A program made the position numbers and the translations under genes. From an uncultured Gammaproteobacteria bacterium (GTDB taxonomy: Bacteria; Pseudomonadota; Gammaproteobacteria; Competibacterales; JAHEDQ01): a DNA stretch of 64,000 bases. Below the pieces are notes generated by a model that ran no database searches, had not been told where the DNA came from, and was given only the letters and a program-made list of their open reading frames with translations. Positions 15,102-64,000 of this stretch are shown here, one piece after another (within the stretch, counting starts at the first letter, position 1; each line of letters opens with the position of its first letter). The stretch spans positions 13,221 through 77,220 of the forward strand of contig CAWAOU010000027.1 of the NCBI GenBank assembly GCA_963783675.1. Direction: 5' to 3'.

Positions 15102-15800
15102 ATGACCCCGAAACGATTTCTGCGACTACGGCAAGTCCTGGACAAAAGGCAACCCGATCTGACGGTGCTCACCGATCAGGTGCATAAACCGCACAACCTT
15201 GCGGCCATCTTGAGGACCTGCGATGCGGTGGGCATCATGACTGCACACGTGGTGCTTGAGAACACGCCCTACCGGTCCCGCCCCGGGACGTCGCTGGGCA
15301 GTGAGCGCTGGGTGGCGGTGGAGCCCCAGACTCGGATCGAGCATGCAATCCGACACCTGCATGACAGCGGGCACCAAGTGCTTGCCGCTCATTTTTCGCA
15401 GCGGGCAGTGGATTTTCGATCCCTGGACTACACCCGTCCGACGGCGCTGCTCCTGGGTGCAGAGAAACACGGTGTCAGCCAAACCGCCGCAACAGAAGCC
15501 GACGCCCATATTGTGGTGCCCATGATGGGCATGGTCGCTTCCTTCAACGTCTCCGTGGCCGCTGCAATCGTGCTAGCCGAAGCCCAACGGCAACGACAGA
15601 ACGCGGGTATGTACGATCGGGTTCGACTCGAACCCGATCGCTATAACGCCACGCTTTTCCGCTGGGCGCACCCGGTACTGGCAGAGTACTGCGATCGGCA
15701 TCACCTGGCCTATCCAGAGCTGTCCGACGAGGGTGATATTCTGGACCTCGCAGCCTGGAGACAGCGCACTGGGCAGACAGCTCGCATCTGTCCTCAGTGA
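15102..15800 (+). CDS. trmH: tRNA (guanosine-2'-O)-methyltransferase, SpoU/TrmH family
   Basis: RQPDLTVLTDQVHKPHNLAAILRTCDAVG and the C-terminal SpoU motifs (LLLGAEKHGVS, PMMGMVASFNVSVAAAI). Confidence 0.85.
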   Translation: MTPKRFLRLRQVLDKRQPDLTVLTDQVHKPHNLAAILRTCDAVGIMTAHVVLENTPYRSRPGTSLGSERWVAVEPQTRIEHAIRHLHDSGHQVLAAHFSQRAVDFRSLDYTRPTALLLGAEKHGVSQTAATEADAHIVVPMMGMVASFNVSVAAAIVLAEAQRQRQNAGMYDRVRLEPDRYNATLFRWAHPVLAEYCDRHHLAYPELSDEGDILDLAAWRQRTGQTARICPQ

Positions 15801-15811
15801 GCCTCCGATCG

Positions 15812-15969
15812 ATTCATGAACGTGCATCTTGGGACTCAAATGCACAGCTTCATCGTTGCAGATCTTGGCAACAGAACAACGATCACCCGCGATCTGCCCC
15901 GCGATCCGCCTCTTGAATCTGCACATTTCACCCTTCGATCTGCTTCATCCAGAACAGATCAGAGGCTCC
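15812..15969 (-). repeat. dispersed structured intergenic repeat, copy A (158 bp)
   Basis: Aligns over its full length with 19546-19681 and 33473-33605 (opposite orientation). Contains an extra 12-bp tandem duplication (ccgcgatctgcc / ccgcgatccgcc). The strand given is the one on which stems show G.U rather than A.C pairs. Confidence 0.75.
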
Positions 15970-19492: not shown

Positions 19493-19545
19493 GCATTGGC
19501 TCCAAATAATCCTCACCCCGGGCTCCACGCCCTGGGGAGCCGCTG

Positions 19546-19681
19546 ATTTATTCTGGGCGAAGCAGATTGGAGTCTGAAATGTGCAGATTCAAGGCGCAGA
19601 TTGCGGGTAATAGTTGCTCTATTGCCAAAATTTGCAACGATGAAGCTGTGCATTTCAGTCCCAAGATGCACGTTCACGAAT
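19546..19681 (+). repeat. dispersed structured intergenic repeat, copy B (136 bp)
   Basis: Full-length alignment to copies A and C. 13-bp outer stem 19574-19586 / 19646-19658 with two G.U-type pairs. Confidence 0.75.
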
Positions 19682-19773
19682 AGATCAGCGGTTCCCTAGG
19701 GCTACCCTAAACAACTGATGGGTAAATACAAGCTCACACCGGCGCTGCCAGGGTCGAGACCGAGTACGCATTT

Positions 19774-33368: not shown

Positions 33369-33472
33369 CTTGGCTCCCCCACCCTGTTTGTGGCGGCATT
33401 TGGCTGCACCAATCCGGCTGCAGCGATTTGCCGTCCCTGACCCCGAACTTTAGTGCAGCCGGCGCCATTAAG

Positions 33473-33605
33473 GGGCCTCTGGTTTGTTCTGGGTGAAGCA
33501 GATTGGAGGGTGAAATCTACAGATTCAAGGCGCAGATCGCGTGTGACCGTCGGTCCATTGTCAGGATTTGCGACGACGAAGCTGTGCATTTGAGTCCCAA
33601 GATGC
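33473..33605 (+). repeat. dispersed structured intergenic repeat, copy C (133 bp)
   Basis: Aligns with copies A and B. More diverged in the central part and carries a compensatory C-G pair where A and B have U-A in the inner stem. Confidence 0.7.
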
Positions 33606-48592: not shown

Positions 48593-49249
48593 TCAACTTT
48601 CCCGGGCTTTTTCGGCTTTTTCTACGAGGAAGTTAATCACTTGGATCAGCGTTTCATGGCTTCCCGCCATGGATACCGAGGTTCGATATCGGCCGTCTAC
48701 GATGATCGCAGGTACTCCGGTGATGCCATATCGTCGGGACATGACGTGGGCGAAATTCAGTTTGTTTTCAACGGCGAAGGAGGAAAACGTATCTTTAACC
48801 GCTTGTCCGTCCGCTCCCATATCGGTTACCCATGCGGCTAATGCGTCGACGGTATCGATTCGTTTACGTTCTGCGTGGATGGCGTGGAAAAACTGGGCGT
48901 GGAATTCTTCGGTGAGTCCCAGGGCTTCGAAGGCGTAAAACGCTCTGGCGTGAAATGCCCACTGTTCATTAAGTACCGCTGGAATGGGAACAAATTCAAC
49001 GTTTTCTGGTTTGTTTTTTAGCCAATCAATGATGTATGGCTCAAGTCGGTAGCAATGAGGGCATCGGTACCAGAACATCTCAACCACTTCAATTTTATCC
49101 CCGGTTTGCACAGGCTGGATATCGGCGAGTAATTCATAATGCCCACCCTCTACGAAGGTGTTGTCTTGGGCCTGCAGAGGCGACAGAAAGAAGATGAACG
49201 CGAAAGCGAAGCTTCGCAATATTGAAGAGCGGGTGATCGTTTTTCTCAT
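48593..49249 (-). CDS. dsbA: thiol:disulfide interchange protein DsbA family
   Basis: Signal peptide MRKTITRSSILRSFAFAFIFFLSPLQA. CPHC active site (WYRCPHCYRLEP). Visibly lower GC than the flanks. Confidence 0.85.
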   Translation of the reverse strand: MRKTITRSSILRSFAFAFIFFLSPLQAQDNTFVEGGHYELLADIQPVQTGDKIEVVEMFWYRCPHCYRLEPYIIDWLKNKPENVEFVPIPAVLNEQWAFHARAFYAFEALGLTEEFHAQFFHAIHAERKRIDTVDALAAWVTDMGADGQAVKDTFSSFAVENKLNFAHVMSRRYGITGVPAIIVDGRYRTSVSMAGSHETLIQVINFLVEKAEKARES

Positions 49250-49254
49250 GATAG

Positions 49255-49817
49255 GAGTATAAGACGAACAAACGCCCTTTTCCGAAAGTTGATCGTGTAT
49301 CCCCAAGTCATCAAACAGTCGCCAAACCGCTTTTCAGTTTGGTGTCGGCCGTGATCGGCCCTTCTGGGCCGGCAGAAGCGGCCAAGATCGAGTAGTTCAG
49401 CCAATTTCTTAACGAATTCCCCGCATCGGGCCGAACGCGATCAAAGCCACAACGCTCAGCGTCGCAGTCGGGGGGTGTTACCGGGTAGCCCGGTTCAGTC
49501 GTCGAACCGTCCCGCCTGGGGCGGCGCCCGACACGGCGGCCGCCTCGTGGCTTGGGGCTCAACCGCTTTCGCATCCAGGTGGCTGAGGATCTTGTCGATG
49601 ACCTCCGGCTGCTCGATGCAGGCGATAATCCGCACCGCCCCACCGCAGGCCCGGCAGGTCTCAACGTCGATACCGAACACCCGCTTCAGACGCTGCGCCC
49701 AGGTCATTGAGGCGCGGCGTTCGGCCGGCGTCGCCTCCTCCCCATCCCCCGTCGCAGCACGCTGGCCTCCCCTGCCACGCTTGGCCGGTGTCACCCGCGC
49801 GCGGTATTTGCTGTTCG
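49255..49817 (-). mobile_element. IS91-family 3' (oriIS-proximal) fragment, copy 1 (563 bp)
   Basis: Near-identical to 59213-59775 and 62901-63463. Encodes only the last about 108 aa of the transposase (NSKYRARVTPAKR...). Ends exactly after an internal GTTC (ctgttcg) at 49817. Confidence 0.85.
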
Positions 49818-49975
49818 CAATCCTCGTCGGGAAGCCGCCATTCGTGATCGGTGCAGCAAAAGCCCGGAACAAGCCCGAAGTAATCATTCTATTTGCCTCA
49901 CTTCAACGGCCGATCCATAAACGGCCAACTCGAGGTGTAAAAGTGTGCCATGGGGAGCAAGCTTGGCTTTGCCAA

Positions 49976-50279
49976 CTAAGCTTGCGCCAAGACAGGCTGG
50001 ACTGCATTTGACCTGGTTGCCAAAGTCGTGGACGGGTATTCGCCGAACTCGCGTCTATAGGCGGCCGAAAACCTGCCGAGGTCGAAGAAACCAAACGAGA
50101 CAGCGACGTCGGTTACGGTTGTCCCGGACAAAGGAGCCGCCGAGAGTAGCCTCTGGCGCGCGCCGTGCAGCCTCTGCCGGCGCAACAGAGTGTAGACCGA
50201 GCAGCCGAACTCCGCCTGAACGCCGCGAGCCAGCGAGTTGACTCATAAAGAATGTAAGCGAAGGAGCGCGGCGGAGATT
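49976..50279 (-). pseudogene. AraC-family regulator C-terminal remnant
   Basis: SLARGVQAEFGCSVYTLLRRQRLHGARQRLL...VTDVAVSFGFFDLGRFSAAYRREFGEYPS is an AraC HTH-2 region. It has an in-frame TGA upstream and is cut by the IS at 50280. Confidence 0.6.
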
Positions 50280-51521
50280 GCGTTGCCTCATATCTTAGGT
50301 AACCGAAAGGAGACCAGGATATGGGCAAGAACGAGAGGCAGGCCTACCTGAAGGAGATCCGCTCTCGCTACCGGCGTTCCGGCCGCCAAGCGAAGGGTCG
50401 CATTCTGGACGAGTTCTGTGCCGTATGCGGCTACCATCGAAAGTACGCCATCCGGCTTTTGCACCGACCTTTGAAGCGGGCTCGGCGGCGCATCGGCCGC
50501 CCGCCGGTGTATGGCTCCAAGGAGCTGCTCACGGCGCTGAAACGGATCTGGTTCGCCACCGACCAGATGTGCTCGAAGAGACTGGTGGCGGTGTTGCCTC
50601 TGTGGTTGCCGTTTTACCGTGATGCCTACGAGCCTCTCAGCCCCGAGACCGAGCAGCAACTTCGCACCCTCAGCGCCGCCACCATCGATCGGCTGCTCAA
50701 AGCCCACCGCGTGCGGGCCGGCAAGGGCCGCTGCACCACCAAGCCCGGCACGTTGCTCAAGAACCAGATCCCGATCCGGACCGATCACTGGGACGTGCGC
50801 GAGCCCGGTTTTGTCGAGGCCGACACCGTTGCCCACTGCGGCAACAGCCTGGCCGGGGATTTCATCTGGTCGCTGACCCTGACCGACATCAACAGCGGCT
50901 GGACCGAGAACCGCGCCACTTGGAACCATGGCGCCCAGGGCGTCGTCACTCAGATCCGCGACATCGAAGCGCGCCTGCCCTTCGCCCTGCAGGGCTTCGA
51001 TTGCGACAACGGCTCGGAGTTTCTCAACTACCATCTGCTGCGCTACTTCACCAAACAGCGCGACAAACCCGTGCCCTTCACCCGTTCGCGCCCTTACCAC
51101 AAAAACGACAACGCCCACGTGGAACAGAAGAACTGGTCACACGTGCGCCAACTCTTTGGCTATGATCGACTTGAAAGACGCGAACTGCTGAGTCTGATGA
51201 ATGCGCTCTACGCCAATCACTGGTCGGCCTACCAGAACCACTTCTGCCCGACGCTCAAGCTGCTGGAGAAAACGCGTATCAACTCCAAATACCGCAAACG
51301 CTATGAGCCACCGAAAACACCCTATCAGCGCCTGCTCGAGTCAGAACACATCAGCGCTGAGGCTAAGGCTCAGCTTCGCACCGTCCACCAATCACTCAAC
51401 CCGTTCGAACTCAAACGCGCCATCGAACAGAAACTACGGGCAATCTTTAAGATCGTGAAAGTAACCACCAATGTGAGGCAACGTCTCTGACCTTCGGTAA
51501 CCTTTAGCAATGAGGCAACGC
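50280..51521 (+). mobile_element. 1.24-kb insertion sequence with DDE (integrase-core) transposase; family uncertain (ISNCY-like?)
   Basis: Terminal inverted repeats GCGTTGCCTCAT...AGGTaACCGAA (50280-) and the reverse complement at 51521 (12 of 12 terminal bp identical). There is an extra subterminal copy of tgaggcaacg at 51473-51482. It bounds a single ORF. Confidence 0.75.
50321..51490 (+). CDS. DDE-type transposase (rve/integrase core domain)
   Basis: 389 aa. Candidate DDE triad in FVEADTV, FDCDNGSEF and NAHVEQKNW. N-terminal HTH-like region. Confidence 0.8.
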   Translation: MGKNERQAYLKEIRSRYRRSGRQAKGRILDEFCAVCGYHRKYAIRLLHRPLKRARRRIGRPPVYGSKELLTALKRIWFATDQMCSKRLVAVLPLWLPFYRDAYEPLSPETEQQLRTLSAATIDRLLKAHRVRAGKGRCTTKPGTLLKNQIPIRTDHWDVREPGFVEADTVAHCGNSLAGDFIWSLTLTDINSGWTENRATWNHGAQGVVTQIRDIEARLPFALQGFDCDNGSEFLNYHLLRYFTKQRDKPVPFTRSRPYHKNDNAHVEQKNWSHVRQLFGYDRLERRELLSLMNALYANHWSAYQNHFCPTLKLLEKTRINSKYRKRYEPPKTPYQRLLESEHISAEAKAQLRTVHQSLNPFELKRAIEQKLRAIFKIVKVTTNVRQRL

Positions 51522-59212: not shown

Positions 59213-60745
59213 GAGTATAAGACGAACAAACGCCCTTTTCCGAAAGTTGATCGTGTATCCCCAAGTCATCAAACAGTTGCCAAACCGCGTTTCAGTTTGG
59301 TGTCGGCCGTGATCGGCCCTTCTGGGCCGGCAGAAGCGGCCAAGATCGAGTAGTTCAGCCAATTTCTTAACGAATTCCCCGCATCGGGCCGAACGCGATC
59401 AAAGCCACAACGCTCAGCGTCGCAGTCGGGGGGTGTTACCGGGTAGCCCGGTTCAGTCGTCGAACCGTCCCGCCTGGGGCGGCGCCCGACACGGCGGCCG
59501 CCTCGTGGCTTGGGGCTCAACCGCTTTCGCATCCAGGTGGCTGAGGATCTTGTCGATGACCTCCGGCTGCTCGATGCAGGCGATAATCCGCACCGCCCCA
59601 CCGCAGGCCCGGCAGGTCTCAACGTCGATACCGAACACCCGCTTCAGACGCTGCGCCCAGGTCATTGAGGCGCGGCGTTCGGCCGGCGTCGCCTCCTCCC
59701 CATCCCCCGTCGCAGCACGCTGGCCTCCCCTGCCACGCTTGGCCGGTGTCACCCGCGCGCGGTATTTGCTGTTCGGCGCAAACACCCCGTGGAAACGGGT
59801 CAGATTGACTCTCGGTTTCGGCACCAAAGCGGCCAGCCGGGCAATGAAATCCAGCGGCTCGAACATCACATGCGTAGTACCGTCGCGGTACGGGGTCTTC
59901 AGCTGGTAACGAACGTTCCCATTCGCCGTGAGCGACAGGCGCTTTTCCGACACCGCCGGGCGGCTGATGTAGCGGCACAGCCGCTCCAGCTTCCCTCTTT
60001 CATCCGCTCTCGCCGCCACGCCCGCGTGCAGCGAGAAACCGGCCACCTTGCCCACCCCGTCATCGAACCGATCATCGCAGGCCGGCAGCGTCCGTAGCGT
60101 GAATACCTTGCGCCCCTGCTGCGGCCCGACAGCGATGCGGTAGGTGATCGACGAACCCAGGAGTTGATGCATAGGCCCGGCCTCGAAGTGGTCGCCGGCC
60201 AGATAGCAGTTCTCCGCATCGCGCTCCAGCAGCCCCTGCCGTTCGAGGTAGCGGCCGATACGCAGCGCCAGGGTCTGCGCCAGCCGGCTGAGTTCGGTGC
60301 TCGTCGGCGCCTTCACCCAGCGGAATCGGAGCGAGCCGTCCGAGCCCTCCACGTACACCCCATCGAGGAACAGCATGTGAAAGTGGATGTTCAGGTTCAG
60401 CGCGCTGCCGAAGCGCTGGATCAGCGTGACCGCGCCGCTCCGGGCCGTCTTGCAGGAAAAACCGGCCTTCTTGGTCAGGTGTGTGGCGATGCAACGGTAG
60501 ACGATGCCCAGCACCCGGCCCATAACAGCAGGGCGGCTGGCGAACAGGAAACGTAAGGGATACGGAACGCTCAACACCCACTGGCGCACCGGCTGCTCGG
60601 CAAACACCTCGTCCACCAGCAATGCCGCGCTCTCGGCCATGCGCCGGGCACCGCAGCTGGGACAAAAGCCCCGGCGTTTGCAACTGAACGCCACCCATTG
60701 ATCGCCATGGCAACTGTCGCAGCGCAGCACCACGTGCCCTGCAAA
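59213..60745 (-). mobile_element. IS91-family element, copy 2 (oriIS end intact, 5'/terIS side missing)
   Basis: Left boundary GAGTATAAGACGAAC is shared with copies 1 and 3. The right boundary is approximate, where the transposase frame merges with a truncated dehydrogenase gene. Confidence 0.8.
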
Positions 60746-60781
60746 GCTGGACGACTCCTGATCCAACGCCTCCGGAGGCAC
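59453..60781 (-). CDS. IS91-family (Y2/HUH rolling-circle) transposase, N-terminally truncated
   Basis: VLRCDSCHGDQWVAFSCKRRGFCPSCGARRMAESAALLVDEV zinc-binding region and the rest of the IS91-type core. The usual about 55 N-terminal residues preceding this motif are absent. Confidence 0.85.
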   Translation of the reverse strand: MPPEALDQESSSFAGHVVLRCDSCHGDQWVAFSCKRRGFCPSCGARRMAESAALLVDEVFAEQPVRQWVLSVPYPLRFLFASRPAVMGRVLGIVYRCIATHLTKKAGFSCKTARSGAVTLIQRFGSALNLNIHFHMLFLDGVYVEGSDGSLRFRWVKAPTSTELSRLAQTLALRIGRYLERQGLLERDAENCYLAGDHFEAGPMHQLLGSSITYRIAVGPQQGRKVFTLRTLPACDDRFDDGVGKVAGFSLHAGVAARADERGKLERLCRYISRPAVSEKRLSLTANGNVRYQLKTPYRDGTTHVMFEPLDFIARLAALVPKPRVNLTRFHGVFAPNSKYRARVTPAKRGRGGQRAATGDGEEATPAERRASMTWAQRLKRVFGIDVETCRACGGAVRIIACIEQPEVIDKILSHLDAKAVEPQATRRPPCRAPPQAGRFDD

Positions 60782-61334
60782 CCGTTACCAAAACTCTTTC
60801 GCCTTCTGAGACCCGTGCTCTTCTGAGCATATGCTCCCCGGTGATATAAGCACAACAGAAGGTTGCAAGTTCGGTGTCTGTTAAGGATGTCTCAACACAG
60901 TGCGCATTCTCTGCGGGCACCGATACGTACTCGGCAAACCCGCCAGGTCGACCTGATCCAATATAATCGTGGCTTGGGATATCGTTTCCAGGGCCGGCAT
61001 ACATTCCAAAATCGACCATGACACGCCGGCCGATAAGGGAGGAATCAATATCTGTACCGCAACCAACAATAACACCCGCTATGTCGGCACCTTGGATTAT
61101 TGGGAATGCTAGCGGACTATCTCCAAAAGAGGCTACCGCATCCGGATCATCAGATACACCATAGGCACCTTCTCGAACCCGGATATCCGTATTATTAATT
61201 CCGCAGGCACCAACTCGAACAAGCACTTCGCCTGAACCAACGTCGGGGGTCGGCCAGTTATTCTCGAACACGAGCTTTCCTGGTCCGCCGTGCCCGGTTA
61301 ACAACATTGCTTTCATCGTCTTTGGAATGGGCAT
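60740..61334 (-). pseudogene. zinc-type alcohol dehydrogenase / quinone oxidoreductase (MDR family), 3'-truncated
   Basis: MKAMLLTGHGGPGKLVFENNWPTPDVGSGEVLVRVGACGINNTDI...VLVTGASGGVGS, then the reading frame runs into IS91 sequence. Only about 195 aa of an expected about 330 are present. Confidence 0.75.
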
Positions 61335-61403
61335 GGCTTAACTCGGGTTGGGAATTTAGTGAATTGGAAACGTGCCACATAACGTCAAAGTTGAGTGGGG
61401 GTT

Positions 61404-62312
61404 CTACCCCGTCTCCACGGACGGTTTTAAAATGGCTGAAAACTTCTGATCTTGTGCAGCAACTCTACGCCGCATTCTGGAATTGTGAAATCGCTCAATG
61501 TAGTCGAACACATCAGCCCTGGCTTCATTCCGGGTGCGGTACCGGCGATGGTGAATCCTTTCGCGTTTGAGTACCCCGAAGAATCCCTCACACGCGGCGT
61601 TGTCGCCGCAATGACCTACAGCACTCATACTGCTGATCAAAGTGTTCTGCCCCAGGAACCGCTGGTAGTCGCCGCTAGTGAATTGGCAGCCTCGATCGGA
61701 ATGTAAAATCACCTTTGTGGCCTCCTGGCGCTGCCAGATAGCCATCTCAACCGCTCGAATGACCATGTGCCGATCCTGTCGATGATGCATCGCCCAGCCA
61801 ATGACAAGCTTGCTGAACAGGTCGAGAACGACGCACAGAAACAGCTTCCCTTCTAATGTCTTGATCTCCGTGATGTCAGTGACCCATTTGCTTTCCGGCT
61901 CCAATGCCGTGAAGTCCCGGCGCAGATGATTCTCAACGCCCGCGGGACGCATACTGGAACCTTTCCAGCGCTTGGGCTTTTTCCGTGGCCAGCCTTGTAT
62001 GTTGTGAGATGCCATCAGGCGTGCAACACGGTTCAAACTGGCTGTCTCACCCTCGGCAGCCAAATCCTCGTGCATACGCGGCGCACCAATTACGCCACCA
62101 CTGTCGTCGTGGATCTCGCGTATGCGTACCAGCAGACGCGCATTGTCCGATTCACGAGGACTCGGCTTGCGTGATACCCAAGCGTAATACCCGCTGGATG
62201 AAACATTCAGGCAGCGGCACATAAGACGAACAGGAAAATCATCGCGACAACGTTGGATCGCCTGATACCTCAGGACGATTCCTTCGCAAAGAACGTTGCC
62301 GCTTCGCGTAAA
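61404..62312 (-). CDS. IS3-family transposase OrfB (DDE), expressed by -1 frameshift from OrfA
   Basis: [30 protein letters not shown]...[10 protein letters not shown]...[16 protein letters not shown]. The -1 frame is open back to a T TTT TTA heptamer at 62309-62315. The ORF-track ATG is at 62222. Confidence 0.85.
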
Positions 62313-62563
62313 AAATCCCGTTCCTTCTTCACCCGCGCCAACTCGCGCTTGAGCCGGGCAACCTCCTCATCCCGAGGTGTGCCGGAGCCGCTGAACGCTT
62401 TGCCAGATACCGCACCGGCTTCACGTTTCCAGCGGCTCAGCAGATTGGGATTGATCCCGATCTCAAGCGCGACCTGGCGGCAACTCACCCCTGGCTGGCG
62501 AGTCAATGCAACGGCTTCTTGCTTGAACTCCGGGCTGTACTTTCTTCGCTTAGACATGAACAC
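62270..62563 (-). CDS. IS3-family transposase OrfA (HTH)
   Basis: [46 protein letters not shown] is canonical IS3 OrfA. Confidence 0.9.
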
Positions 62564-62900
62564 TCCTTCGGCACATTGTGCCTCTTCTTGGAAGTGTCCG
62601 TGTTAACGGGGTAGAACCCGTCCTTCAGACAGGTCAGTCGCGGTCAGGTAGGCGAGGAGTTGGTACAGGTCGCCATGCTGCAGTCCTGGCGCCCTGAGGC
62701 CCTTGTATTTGACGTCGCCAATAAAGTGGCAGATGCCCGCCCTCCCCCCAGCCGATGTCCGGCCTAAGGCGCACTGATTCGCCCTGGTCGAGGGTCAGCG
62801 CATGGCCAACGCACTCCTGCGGGAACGATCGCTGTGTAAGGTTAAGTTCTTCTCCTTAGGGTAAGGGTCAACGACCAGATAAGATCCCCGGGCAGGCTGT

Positions 62901-63627
62901 GAGTATAAGACGAACAAACGCCCTTTTCCGAAAGTTGATCGTGTATCCCCAAGTCATCAAACAGTCGCCAAACCGCTTTTCAGTTTGGTGTCGGCCGTGA
63001 TCGGCCCTTCTGGGCCGGCAGAAGCGGCCAAGATCGAGTAGTTCAGCCAATTTCTTAACGAATTCCCCGCATCGGGCCGAACGCGATCAAAGCCGCAACG
63101 CTCAGCGTCGCAGTCGGGGGGTGTTACCGGGTAGCCCGGTTCAGTCGTCGAACCGTCCCGCCTGGGGCGGCGCCCGACACGGCGGCCGCCTCGTGGCTTG
63201 GGGCTCAACCGCTTTCGCATCCAGGTGGCTGAGGATCTTGTCGATGACCTCCGGCTGCTCGATGCAGGCGATAATCCGCACCGCCCCACCGCAGGCCCGG
63301 CAGGTCTCAACGTCGATACCGAACACCCGCTTCAGACGCTGCGCCCAGGTCATTGAGGCGCGGCGTTCGGCCGGCGTCGCCTCCTCCCCATCCCCCGTCG
63401 CAGCACGCTGGCCTCCCCTGCCACGCTTGGCCGGTGTCACCCGCGCGCGGGATTTGCTGTTCGGCGCAAACACCCCGTGGAAACGGGTCAGATTGACTCT
63501 CGGTCTGGGCACCAGGGCCGCCAGCCGGGCAATGAAATCGAGGGGTTCAAAGATGACGTGCGTCGTACCGTCGCGGTACGGGGTCTTCAGCTGGTAACGA
63601 ACGTTCCCATTCGCGGTGAGCGACAGG
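62901..63627 (-). mobile_element. IS91-family 3' fragment, copy 3 (727 bp, mosaic)
   Basis: 62901-63450 is near-identical to copies 1 and 2. 63451-63627 aligns with copy 2 with about 15 substitutions, mostly silent in the transposase frame. Homology ends at 63627. Confidence 0.8.
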
Positions 63628-63934
63628 GGGATGGATTCCGCATGGCGTTCCAGCTACGAGACCGCAAGTTTGTGATCGGCGGTAATGCCGGGTGGTGATC
63701 GCGAACGCTTAACCGCGCCGGGCTTTGCTTTGGTCATAGCGATGGGGCGTCTCCTCTTGCGGTTTTCCTCAATGCTCCACGTTTCTAGCCGGGGTCGCCG
63801 GACGCGCAACGGGCGGCCCGCTCCATTCGCTGCGCTCCCGTGTTGCCCGTTCCCCTGCGGTGCCCGTCCGGCTTGTCCCCCGTCTTCGATGTTTCGCGTG
63901 TTTCGGAAAAACCGCTTAACAGAGGAGACCAACC

Positions 63935-64000
63935 ATGACCAAGAACAGCGCACCCCGGCAGGACGTTTACACCCGCGTCACCGACAAGATCGTCGCCGAT
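63935..64000 (+). CDS. ArdC-like / DUF1738 N-terminal domain protein (partial, runs off window)
   Basis: GAGGAG Shine-Dalgarno, then MTKNSAPRQDVYTRVTDKIVAD, which resembles the N-terminus of ArdC/DUF1738 ssDNA-binding proteins of conjugative elements. Only 22 codons are visible. Confidence 0.45.
   Translation, partial: MTKNSAPRQDVYTRVTDKIVAD

What the first reader, a model, noticed from the sequence alone, without database searches (positions are those of the whole stretch)
49255..49817. 563-bp IS91 oriIS module that stops exactly at an internal GTTC
Copy 1 shares the end GAGTATAAGACGAACAAACGCCC (read on the transposase strand: ...GGGCGTTTGTTCGTCTTATACTC). This resembles the conserved oriIS termini described for IS91/ISCR elements, as I recall them. 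Homology to the full copy ends right after ctGTTCg at 49817. IS91-family rolling-circle transposition is reported to initiate at oriIS and, in one-ended events, to terminate at GTTC/CTTG tetranucleotides. A fragment of oriIS plus 3' tnpA ending at GTTC is what premature termination at an internal pseudo-terIS would produce.
Basis: partly seen in the sequence, partly recalled or inferred. Interest (0 to 1): 0.6.

Follow-up and report, generated by a model that had tools for sequence, protein, structure and literature searches.

The report
Truncated ISCR remnant; GTTC end coincidental
The 563-bp piece is a real but ordinary dead remnant of an ISCR-type (IS91-family) rolling-circle mobile element that keeps its origin end, and the fact that it stops at GTTC is best explained as chance, because 16 comparable remnants stop at arbitrary sequences.

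Summary
Window 49255-49817 is a 563-bp copy, 99.5-99.6% identical to two other copies at 59213 and 62901. It starts at a genuine ISCR/IS91-type oriIS end, and homology stops one base after GTTC (49813-49816).

Two details need correcting. The element is ISCR2/ISVsa3-like (about 75% aa identity), not IS91 proper. There is no full copy in the window. The longest copy (59213-60726) lacks about 75 N-terminal codons and terIS, and is fused to a truncated alcohol-dehydrogenase gene.

I mapped 16 other oriIS-anchored fragment ends: the two in the window, five junctions in metagenome copies of the same element, and nine fragments in related genomes. None ends at GTTC or CTTG. About 1-2% is expected by chance per junction. 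In this clade neither the DNA next to oriIS nor the terIS ends show GTTC/CTTG.

The best reading is a non-autonomous ΔISCR remnant in a head-to-tail array of three, inside a mosaic of truncated genes and other IS elements. Its inner breakpoint is sequence-independent.

Remnant ISCR copies that keep oriIS are already described. Interest is low.

The parts
49255..49817 (-). Copy 1: 563-bp oriIS-anchored remnant of an ISCR2-like IS91-family element (tnpA sense on the minus strand)
   Evidence: tblastn with a 500-aa full-length relative covers only aa 393-498
49255..49277 (-). oriIS terminal motif (minus strand: GGGCGTTTGTTCGTCTTATACTC); the element ends at ...TATACTC
   Evidence: conserved in related loci 215-240 bp past the tnpA stop, and ends at TATACnn where flanks diverge; similar to the oriIS of an ISCR next to rmtC
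49495..49817 (-). 3' end of tnpA (last 106 codons plus stop). It lacks the HUH and Y2 catalytic region and is annotated in the MAG as part of a 130-aa fusion ORF, 49495-49887
   Evidence: no Pfam domain
49813..49816 (+). Internal GTTC one base before the end of homology
   Evidence: one of 17 GTTC/CTTG sites on this strand of the 1514-bp copy
59213..60726 (-). Copy 2: 1514-bp oriIS-anchored copy. Its tnpA lacks about 75 N-terminal codons and terIS. The inner end ...CAGCGCA| is joined to a truncated ADH gene
62901..63627 (-). Copy 3: 727-bp oriIS-anchored copy; inner end ...GAGCGACAGG|
48593..49249 (-). dsbA-like gene whose ATG lies 5 bp outside the oriIS end of copy 1
   Evidence: Pfam DSBA. 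Relatives have mpl directly upstream, and there is no mpl in the window
49818..50240 (-). Inner flank of copy 1: 157-bp spacer, then the C-terminal roughly 88 codons of an AraC-type regulator (from 49975; the upper limit is approximate), cut off by the next IS
   Evidence: translation; no similar DNA in any fetched locus; no close protein homologue
50280..51521 (+). Unrelated IS with a 389-aa ORF that has a weak rve match (E 7e-4, below the Pfam cutoff) and 12-bp perfect terminal inverted repeats (GCGTTGCCTCAT)
60727..61334 (-). N-terminal half of an MDR-type alcohol dehydrogenase gene, truncated at the junction with copy 2
   Evidence: Pfam ADH_N only; no C-terminal half on the other side of copy 2
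61390..62625 (-). IS3-family element (orfA 62270-62563, orfB 61404-62222) between copies 2 and 3; the limits are approximate

Best explanation
Copy 1 is a non-autonomous, 5'-truncated remnant (a 'ΔISCR') of an ISCR2/ISVsa3-like rolling-circle element. It keeps the complete oriIS end, about 240 bp of non-coding DNA and the last 106 codons of the transposase gene. It is one of three such remnants (563, 1514 and 727 bp), all in the same orientation within 14.4 kb. They separate blocks of mosaic DNA that contain truncated genes (sulfatase, araC-type, ADH) and two other IS elements.

The inner breakpoint arose by a sequence-independent event. This was either illegitimate recombination or deletion on the terIS side, or abortive or read-through rolling-circle transfer with no specific terminator. 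That it coincides with GTTC is chance.

Shown here: the element's identity, its limits, the truncation of all three copies, the arbitrary inner ends across the family, and the orientation bias.

Inferred: a solo oriIS like this could still act as an origin for one-ended mobilisation of the DNA to its right on the + strand (49818 onward) if a transposase were supplied in trans.
For: The oriIS motif is conserved across the family and ends at TATACnn.

Inner ends of 16 other oriIS-anchored fragments are arbitrary:
- copy 2: ...CAGCGCA|
- copy 3: ...GACAGG|
- L082/L083: ...GCAACTG|
- L095/L097: ...AGCTTC|
- L089: ...CGTCTT|
- L096: ...CTTTTC|
- L021a, L022b, L006b, L046a, L046c, L079b, L047b, L075b, L013a and L019a, all elsewhere.

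Copy 2 joins two truncated genes, with no second ADH half on its other side. That pattern fits illegitimate recombination rather than a clean insertion.

L082/L083 show 6 bp of possible microhomology at their junction.

All 11 extra oriIS-anchored fragments found beside a primary copy in related loci are in direct orientation with it, against only 1-2 terIS-anchored ones.

The same fragment plus at least 2.5 kb of inner flank occurs with different DNA outside the exact oriIS end (L095 vs L097; also L094 vs L098).

Remnant ISCR copies that keep oriIS and 'sandwich' cargo are already described (PMC12772301; ΔISCR2 in PMC6506621).
Against: Joining the two flanks of copy 1 gives ...CGACGAGGATTG|CTATCATG. 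This places GAGGA 8 nt upstream of the dsbA start codon. About 1.5-5% of random 9-nt windows in this sequence hold such a motif. It hints that the 563 bp could be a discrete insertion into a dsbA leader, which a simple deletion model does not predict.

In the parent sequence the GTTC sits in the loop of a small TTTGC/GCAAA hairpin.

No empty site and no full-length parent with terIS could be recovered, so the event that made the breakpoint is not identified.
Confidence: 0.75

Rival explanations
1. Rolling-circle transposition started at oriIS and was terminated by the transposase at the internal GTTC acting as a pseudo-terIS. The 563-bp strand was then inserted as a discrete unit.
For: GTTC is on the displaced strand, in the orientation of the IS801/IS1294 terIS cleavage site 5'-GTTC (PMC13181058). 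GTTC lies in a small hairpin loop in the parent. An SD-like GAGGA is restored when the flanks are joined.
Against: None of 16 other fragment ends is at GTTC/CTTG. The chance rate is 1.1-2.2% per junction, so P(at least one hit in 17) is about 0.17-0.32. In this clade the four bases outside oriIS are variable (ATAG, ATCG, CTGT, AGGC, GGAA, CTGG and others). The terIS ends of relatives read ...TAGC...TCGC or ...CTGC, not GTTC. The hairpin is no more stable than in shuffles (z = +0.9). The three closest dsbA relatives have mpl directly upstream, not an araC-type gene.
Confidence: 0.12
2. Sequence-independent abortive rolling-circle transfer produced a discrete 563-bp 'dead-on-arrival' insertion between the ribosome-binding site and the start codon of dsbA. 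GTTC is incidental.
For: There is an SD-like motif in the reconstructed site. Related loci show a strong excess of oriIS-anchored over terIS-anchored fragments, all in direct orientation. Toleman's suggestion that termination may be random is quoted in PMC5737581.
Against: No empty site was found. The conserved mpl-dsbA synteny is absent here. Copy 2 and L095/L097 are clearly not discrete insertions of the fragment alone.
Confidence: 0.1
3. The truncated copy is an assembly artefact: a chimeric join inside a repeat in a metagenome-assembled genome.
For: The window comes from a MAG contig (CALOET010000045.1) and the repeat occurs three times.
Against: A wrong path through a repeat swaps flanks but does not create a new end of homology. 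The junction-spanning 130-aa ORF is indexed on two contigs of different size classes. Comparable truncated copies recur in independent metagenomes (L082/L083, L095/L097).
Confidence: 0.03

Closest known systems
ISCR2 / ISVsa3 (ISCR subgroup of the IS91 family)
   Same: The Y2 HUH transposase has Zn_Tnp_IS91 plus Y2_Tnp domains and about 75% aa identity to proteins named ISVsa3 or ISCR2-like. The oriIS motif GGCGTTT..TTC..C(T/C)TATAC lies about 240 bp past the stop codon. There are no inverted repeats, and the element is associated with mosaic 'cargo' DNA.
   Different: It is a different element: only about 77% nt identity over 350 bp to enterobacterial plasmid copies. It comes from an environmental gammaproteobacterial MAG. 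No intact copy and no terIS are present in the window.
IS91 / IS801 / IS1294 one-ended transposition
   Same: Transfer is polar from oriIS. Products have a constant oriIS end and a variable other end. In IS91 the last 82 bp of the oriIS end suffice (PMC13181058; PMC5737581).
   Different: Those elements need a GTTC/CTTG tetranucleotide beside oriIS and cleave terIS at GTTC or CTCG. One-ended events normally over-run terIS and carry extra DNA. Here the copies are shorter than the element, and no GTTC/CTTG rule is visible at oriIS flanks, terIS ends or 16 of 17 inner ends.
Remnant ISCR copies with an extra oriIS ('sandwich' structures of ISCR28; ΔISCR2 bordering resistance regions)
   Same: A truncated ISCR that keeps oriIS lies in direct orientation with another ISCR copy and brackets cargo genes (PMC12772301; PMC6506621). 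The three-copy array here has the same geometry, as do 11 of 11 related loci.
   Different: The cargo here is not antibiotic resistance. No intact copy closes the array within the window.

Membership tests
IS91 family / ISCR subgroup | Y2 HUH rolling-circle transposase (Pfam Y2_Tnp with N-terminal Zn_Tnp_IS91) | tested here: met
   Copy 2: Y2_Tnp E 1.7e-35 (profile 1-182 of 183) and Zn_Tnp_IS91 partial (34-90 of 90). Copy 1 keeps only aa 393-498 of a 500-aa relative.
IS91 family / ISCR subgroup | Conserved oriIS end downstream of tnpA | tested here: met
   The motif occurs in about 30 related loci at the same position, and flanks diverge right after TATACnn. It is similar to the ISCR next to rmtC.
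IS91 family / ISCR subgroup | terIS end upstream of tnpA | tested here: not met
   Absent from all three window copies. These are remnants, not complete elements.
IS91 proper (IS91/IS801/IS1294) | Target tetranucleotide GTTC/CTTG abutting oriIS | tested here: not met
   The window flanks are ATAG, ATCG and CTGT. Metagenome and genome relatives are equally variable.
One-ended or prematurely terminated RC product ending at GTTC/CTTG | Variable end coincides with GTTC/CTTG on the displaced strand, recurrently | tested here: not met
   Copy 1 does; 16 other mapped ends do not. The chance rate is 1-2%.
One-ended or prematurely terminated RC product ending at GTTC/CTTG | Subterminal hairpin next to the cleavage site, as in terIS | tested here: inconclusive
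   A small TTTGC/GCAAA stem surrounds the GTTC in the parent, but the folding energy is not better than in shuffles (z = +0.94). The stem is explained by the conserved codons F-A-P-N-S-K.
One-ended or prematurely terminated RC product ending at GTTC/CTTG | Flanks contiguous in an uninterrupted (empty) site | tested here: inconclusive
   There is an SD-like motif in the joined flanks. However, relatives have mpl upstream of dsbA, no empty site was recovered, and relatives are too distant at the DNA level (74% nt).

The most novel reading that the evidence does not exclude
The 563-bp piece is a discrete product of aborted rolling-circle transposition that landed between the ribosome-binding site and the start codon of dsbA. 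The GTTC, in the loop of a small hairpin, acted as a cryptic terminator. More broadly, ISCR elements would then routinely shed oriIS-anchored 'dead-on-arrival' copies and stack them head to tail at resident oriIS sites.
Probability: 0.12. Interest if true: 0.5.

Novelty: new member of a known kind. Interest (0 to 1): 0.2.

Why it matters
On its own it matters little: it is a decayed copy of a known type of mobile element in an environmental MAG.

It is useful as a marker. The three oriIS ends flag the boundaries of a mosaic, horizontally assembled region. A solo oriIS may still allow trans-mobilisation of the adjacent 9.4 kb.

The family-wide side result may interest ISCR specialists. oriIS-anchored fragments greatly outnumber terIS-anchored ones, always lie in direct orientation with their neighbour, and have arbitrary inner ends. 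This argues against a GTTC-type terminator in this clade. It fits structures already described for ISCR28 and ISCR2.

Tried and rejected
- Plasmid database: a near search with copy 2 and with 44-64 kb gave only distant ISCR and IS3 hits and no near-identical record.
- Exact-protein look-ups for the IS3 orfB, three versions of the copy-2 ORFs, the copy-3 ORF and the 99-aa ORF at 63654-63953 were all not on record. The 2.4 kb of contig beyond 64000 could therefore not be read.
- Empty-site test through dsbA relatives: the closest are 82% and 74-75% aa identical and all have mpl-dsbA. The 82% relative is only 74% nt identical, too distant to reconstruct a site. No mpl or DUF4332 gene is in the window.
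- AraC-remnant homologue search: nothing reached E <= 1e-8.
- 'Mini-ISCR' idea (an internal deletion that keeps terIS): rejected. The inner flank 49818-50290 matches nothing in 100 related loci.
- Truncation by a neighbouring IS: rejected for copy 1. The rve-type IS starts 462 bp away, at 50280.
- Outward promoter from oriIS driving dsbA: no sigma-70-like site in 49150-50000.
- Rfam scan of the whole window: no hits.
- The diverged patch in copy 2 (element positions 605-715) was considered as a link to the copy-1 breakpoint. It is specific to copy 2 and starts at least 40 bp further in.

Full report
**1. What is in the sequence**

Self-BLAST of the window, the repeat finder and a three-way alignment confirm three copies of one sequence, all in the same orientation:
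- copy 1 at 49255-49817 (563 bp);
- copy 2 from 59213;
- copy 3 at 62901-63627 (727 bp).

Over the first 563 bp the copies differ at only 2-3 positions. All three begin on the + strand with GAGTATAAGACGAACAAACGCCC. The DNA to the left of that differs in each (…GATAG, …TATCG, …GCTGT), so 49255 is a true element end. Copy 1 stops matching after …GCTGTTCG (49817), and GTTC is at 49813-49816.

**2. What the element is**

The minus-strand ORF of copy 2 has a complete Pfam Y2_Tnp domain and a partial Zn_Tnp_IS91 domain. Its homologues are 497-500-aa IS91-family transposases. They include proteins that sources name 'IS91-like element ISVsa3 family transposase' and 'ISCR2-like', at about 75% identity. 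The element therefore belongs to the ISCR subgroup.

In about 30 of 80 related loci from public genomes, the motif GGCGTTTATTCTTCCTATAC(T/G)C lies 215-240 bp past the transposase match. Where near-identical copies sit in different contexts, homology stops just after TATAC plus two bases. The window copies end in exactly that way. An ISCR copy next to rmtC on a Klebsiella plasmid has the same kind of end, GGGTATAGGAAGTTCAACCGCCC.

**3. No copy is complete**

Alignment with full-length relatives and with a 97.5%-identical metagenome copy that runs further (L092) places the inner end of copy 2 at about 60726 (…TCGCAGCGCA|). This is roughly 75 codons short of the start, and there is no terIS. There it is fused to the N-terminal half of an MDR-type alcohol dehydrogenase gene. 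The other half of that gene is not on the far side of copy 2.

Copy 1 retains only codons 393-498 of the transposase, and copy 3 retains codons 338-498. The window is a reversed part of MAG contig CALOET010000045.1.

**4. Test of the GTTC idea**

Background from the literature (PMC13181058): IS91-family elements initiate at oriIS beside a target tetranucleotide. The terIS cleavage site is 5'-GTTC in IS801, IS1294 and IS1294b, and CTCG in IS91. The bottom strand is the one transferred. On that model the window + strand is the transferred strand, so a GTTC at the right end of copy 1 has the correct orientation.

| Source | Fragment | Inner end |
|---|---|---|
| Window | copy 2 | …CAGCGCA\| |
| Window | copy 3 | …GAGCGACAGG\| |
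| Metagenome copies of the same element | L082/L083 | …GCAACTG\| |
| | L095/L097 | …CCAGCTTC\| |
| | L089 | …GCCGTCTT\| (one base short of a CTTG) |
| | L096 | …CCCTTTTC\| |
| Related genomes, mapped against near-identical (90-100%) references | L021a, L022b, L006b, L046a, L046c, L079b, L047b, L075b, L013a, L019a | none at GTTC or CTTG |

That is one hit in 17 junctions. The 1514-bp copy carries 17 GTTC/CTTG sites on this strand. A random breakpoint therefore falls at one with probability 1.1%, or 2.2% if the one-base overhang accepted here is allowed. At least one hit in 17 is expected 17-32% of the time.

This clade also shows no GTTC/CTTG rule. The four bases outside oriIS are ATAG, ATCG and CTGT in the window, and AGGC, GGAA, CTGG, ATCA, ACCG, CGTG, TAGG and others elsewhere. 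The terIS-side ends of four groups of relatives read …TAGC, …TAGC, …TCGC and …CTGC.

The parent sequence around the GTTC folds no better than shuffled sequence (z = +0.94). The small TTTGC/GCAAA stem there follows from the conserved codons F-A-P-N-S-K.

**5. Context**

Copy 1 sits 5 bp upstream of the ATG of a dsbA-like gene. On its inner side are a 157-bp spacer and then the last roughly 88 codons of an AraC-type gene. That gene is cut by an IS that encodes a 389-aa rve-like protein and has 12-bp terminal inverted repeats.

Beyond dsbA lies a sulfatase C-terminal fragment. An IS3-family element lies between copies 2 and 3.

The three closest dsbA lineages (82%, 74% and 75% aa) all have mpl immediately upstream and two of them have a DUF4332 gene next downstream. 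Neither gene is in the window. The neighbourhood is a mosaic of gene fragments. Copy 1 lies at a junction between blocks rather than in a recognisable conserved site.

**6. Family-wide pattern**

In the flanks of the related loci, 11 extra fragments that keep the transposase C-terminus lie next to a primary copy. All 11 are in direct orientation with it; 2^-11 is about 0.0005 if they are independent. Only one or two terIS-anchored fragments were seen. Two neighbouring full or edge-cut copies were inverted.

In metagenomes the same 781-bp fragment with at least 2.5 kb of inner flank occurs with two different sequences outside the exact oriIS end (L095 vs L097). L094 and L098 behave likewise.

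This fits the known polarity of the system: the oriIS end is the active, constant end. It also fits published 'sandwich' structures, in which a remnant ISCR with an extra oriIS brackets cargo (PMC12772301), and ΔISCR2 copies bordering resistance regions (PMC6506621).

**7. What keeps the rival alive**

If the two flanks of copy 1 are joined, the minus strand reads …CGACGAGGATTG|CTATCATG. GAGGA then lies 8 nt before the dsbA start codon. Only 1.5-5% of 9-nt windows in this sequence contain such a motif. This was noticed after the fact, and it conflicts with the mpl-dsbA synteny. Still, it leaves perhaps a one-in-four chance that the 563 bp is a discrete insertion.

I could not obtain an empty site. 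The AraC remnant has no close homologue. The dsbA relatives are too distant at the DNA level.

**8. Verdict**

The feature is real and its description is accurate. It is an oriIS-bearing ΔISCR remnant of a new ISCR2-like element.

A sequence-independent origin of the breakpoint is the best-supported explanation (about 0.75). That origin could be deletion or illegitimate recombination, or non-specific abortive or read-through rolling-circle transfer.

Novelty: a new member of a known kind. Interest: low.

Noticed in passing
window 15796-15900 (-), 19536-19697 (+), 33472-33605 (+): Three copies of a roughly 100-135-nt intergenic repeat (83-86% identical). It has a conserved core, GATGAAGCTGTGCATTTGAGTCCCAAGATGCAC, containing a GTGCAT/ATGCAC hairpin. 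The whole window has no Rfam match.
   Followed up: partly
L082 400-450 and L083 15-65 (two JGI metagenomes): A 1474-bp oriIS-anchored copy of the same element is joined to a 32-bp perfect palindrome, CAACTGCTATCGTGAG|CTCACGATAGCAGTTG. The first 6 nt of the palindrome are the last 6 nt of the ISCR fragment. This suggests microhomology or a hairpin-mediated join.
   Followed up: partly
L095 7111-10402 vs L097 207-3508; L094 354 vs L098 2240: The same truncated ISCR fragment occurs with different DNA outside the exact oriIS end; in the L095/L097 pair it also carries its inner flank (3.3 kb in total, 99.2% identical). The truncated unit either moved or had new DNA inserted precisely at oriIS.
   Followed up: partly
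window 59817-59927 (element positions 605-715 of copy 2): Copy 2 alone carries a cluster of 14 substitutions, mostly spaced 3 nt apart. The other copies that cover this stretch (copy 3, L082, L083, L092, L094, L095, L097) share the alternative haplotype there. This looks like a gene-conversion patch from a diverged ISCR.
   Followed up: partly
window 49240-49254 joined to 49818-49835 (minus strand): Removing copy 1 in silico places GAGGA 8 nt upstream of the dsbA ATG, a Shine-Dalgarno-like arrangement with a chance rate of about 1.5-5%. With copy 1 present, no such motif precedes the ATG.
   Followed up: partly
L015 about 790-830, L016, L008/L009, L037 (terIS regions of relatives): Upstream of tnpA the relatives carry CTGT-N8-ACAG-like sequences (for example ACTGTATAAAAACACAGT). 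These resemble the LexA boxes reported for ISCR1, ISCR2 and ISCR8 promoters (PMC13393415).
   Followed up: no
L021/L022/L005, 3380-3790: In this 85%-related element, homology between copies begins about 400 bp upstream of the tnpA start. That leaves room for an extra upstream ORF or a long terIS region, which I did not examine.
   Followed up: no
window 50280-51521: A 1.24-kb IS with a 389-aa ORF that gives only a weak rve match (E 7e-4, below the Pfam cutoff). It has 12-bp perfect inverted repeats, extending to about 33 bp imperfect. No clear target duplication is visible, and the AraC-type gene it interrupts does not resume on its other side.
   Followed up: partly
L092/L094/L097/L098 vs window copies, element positions 121-168: The non-coding part near oriIS exists in two forms. 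They differ by a 10-bp GC-rich insertion and a run of alternating substitutions at positions 152-168.
   Followed up: no
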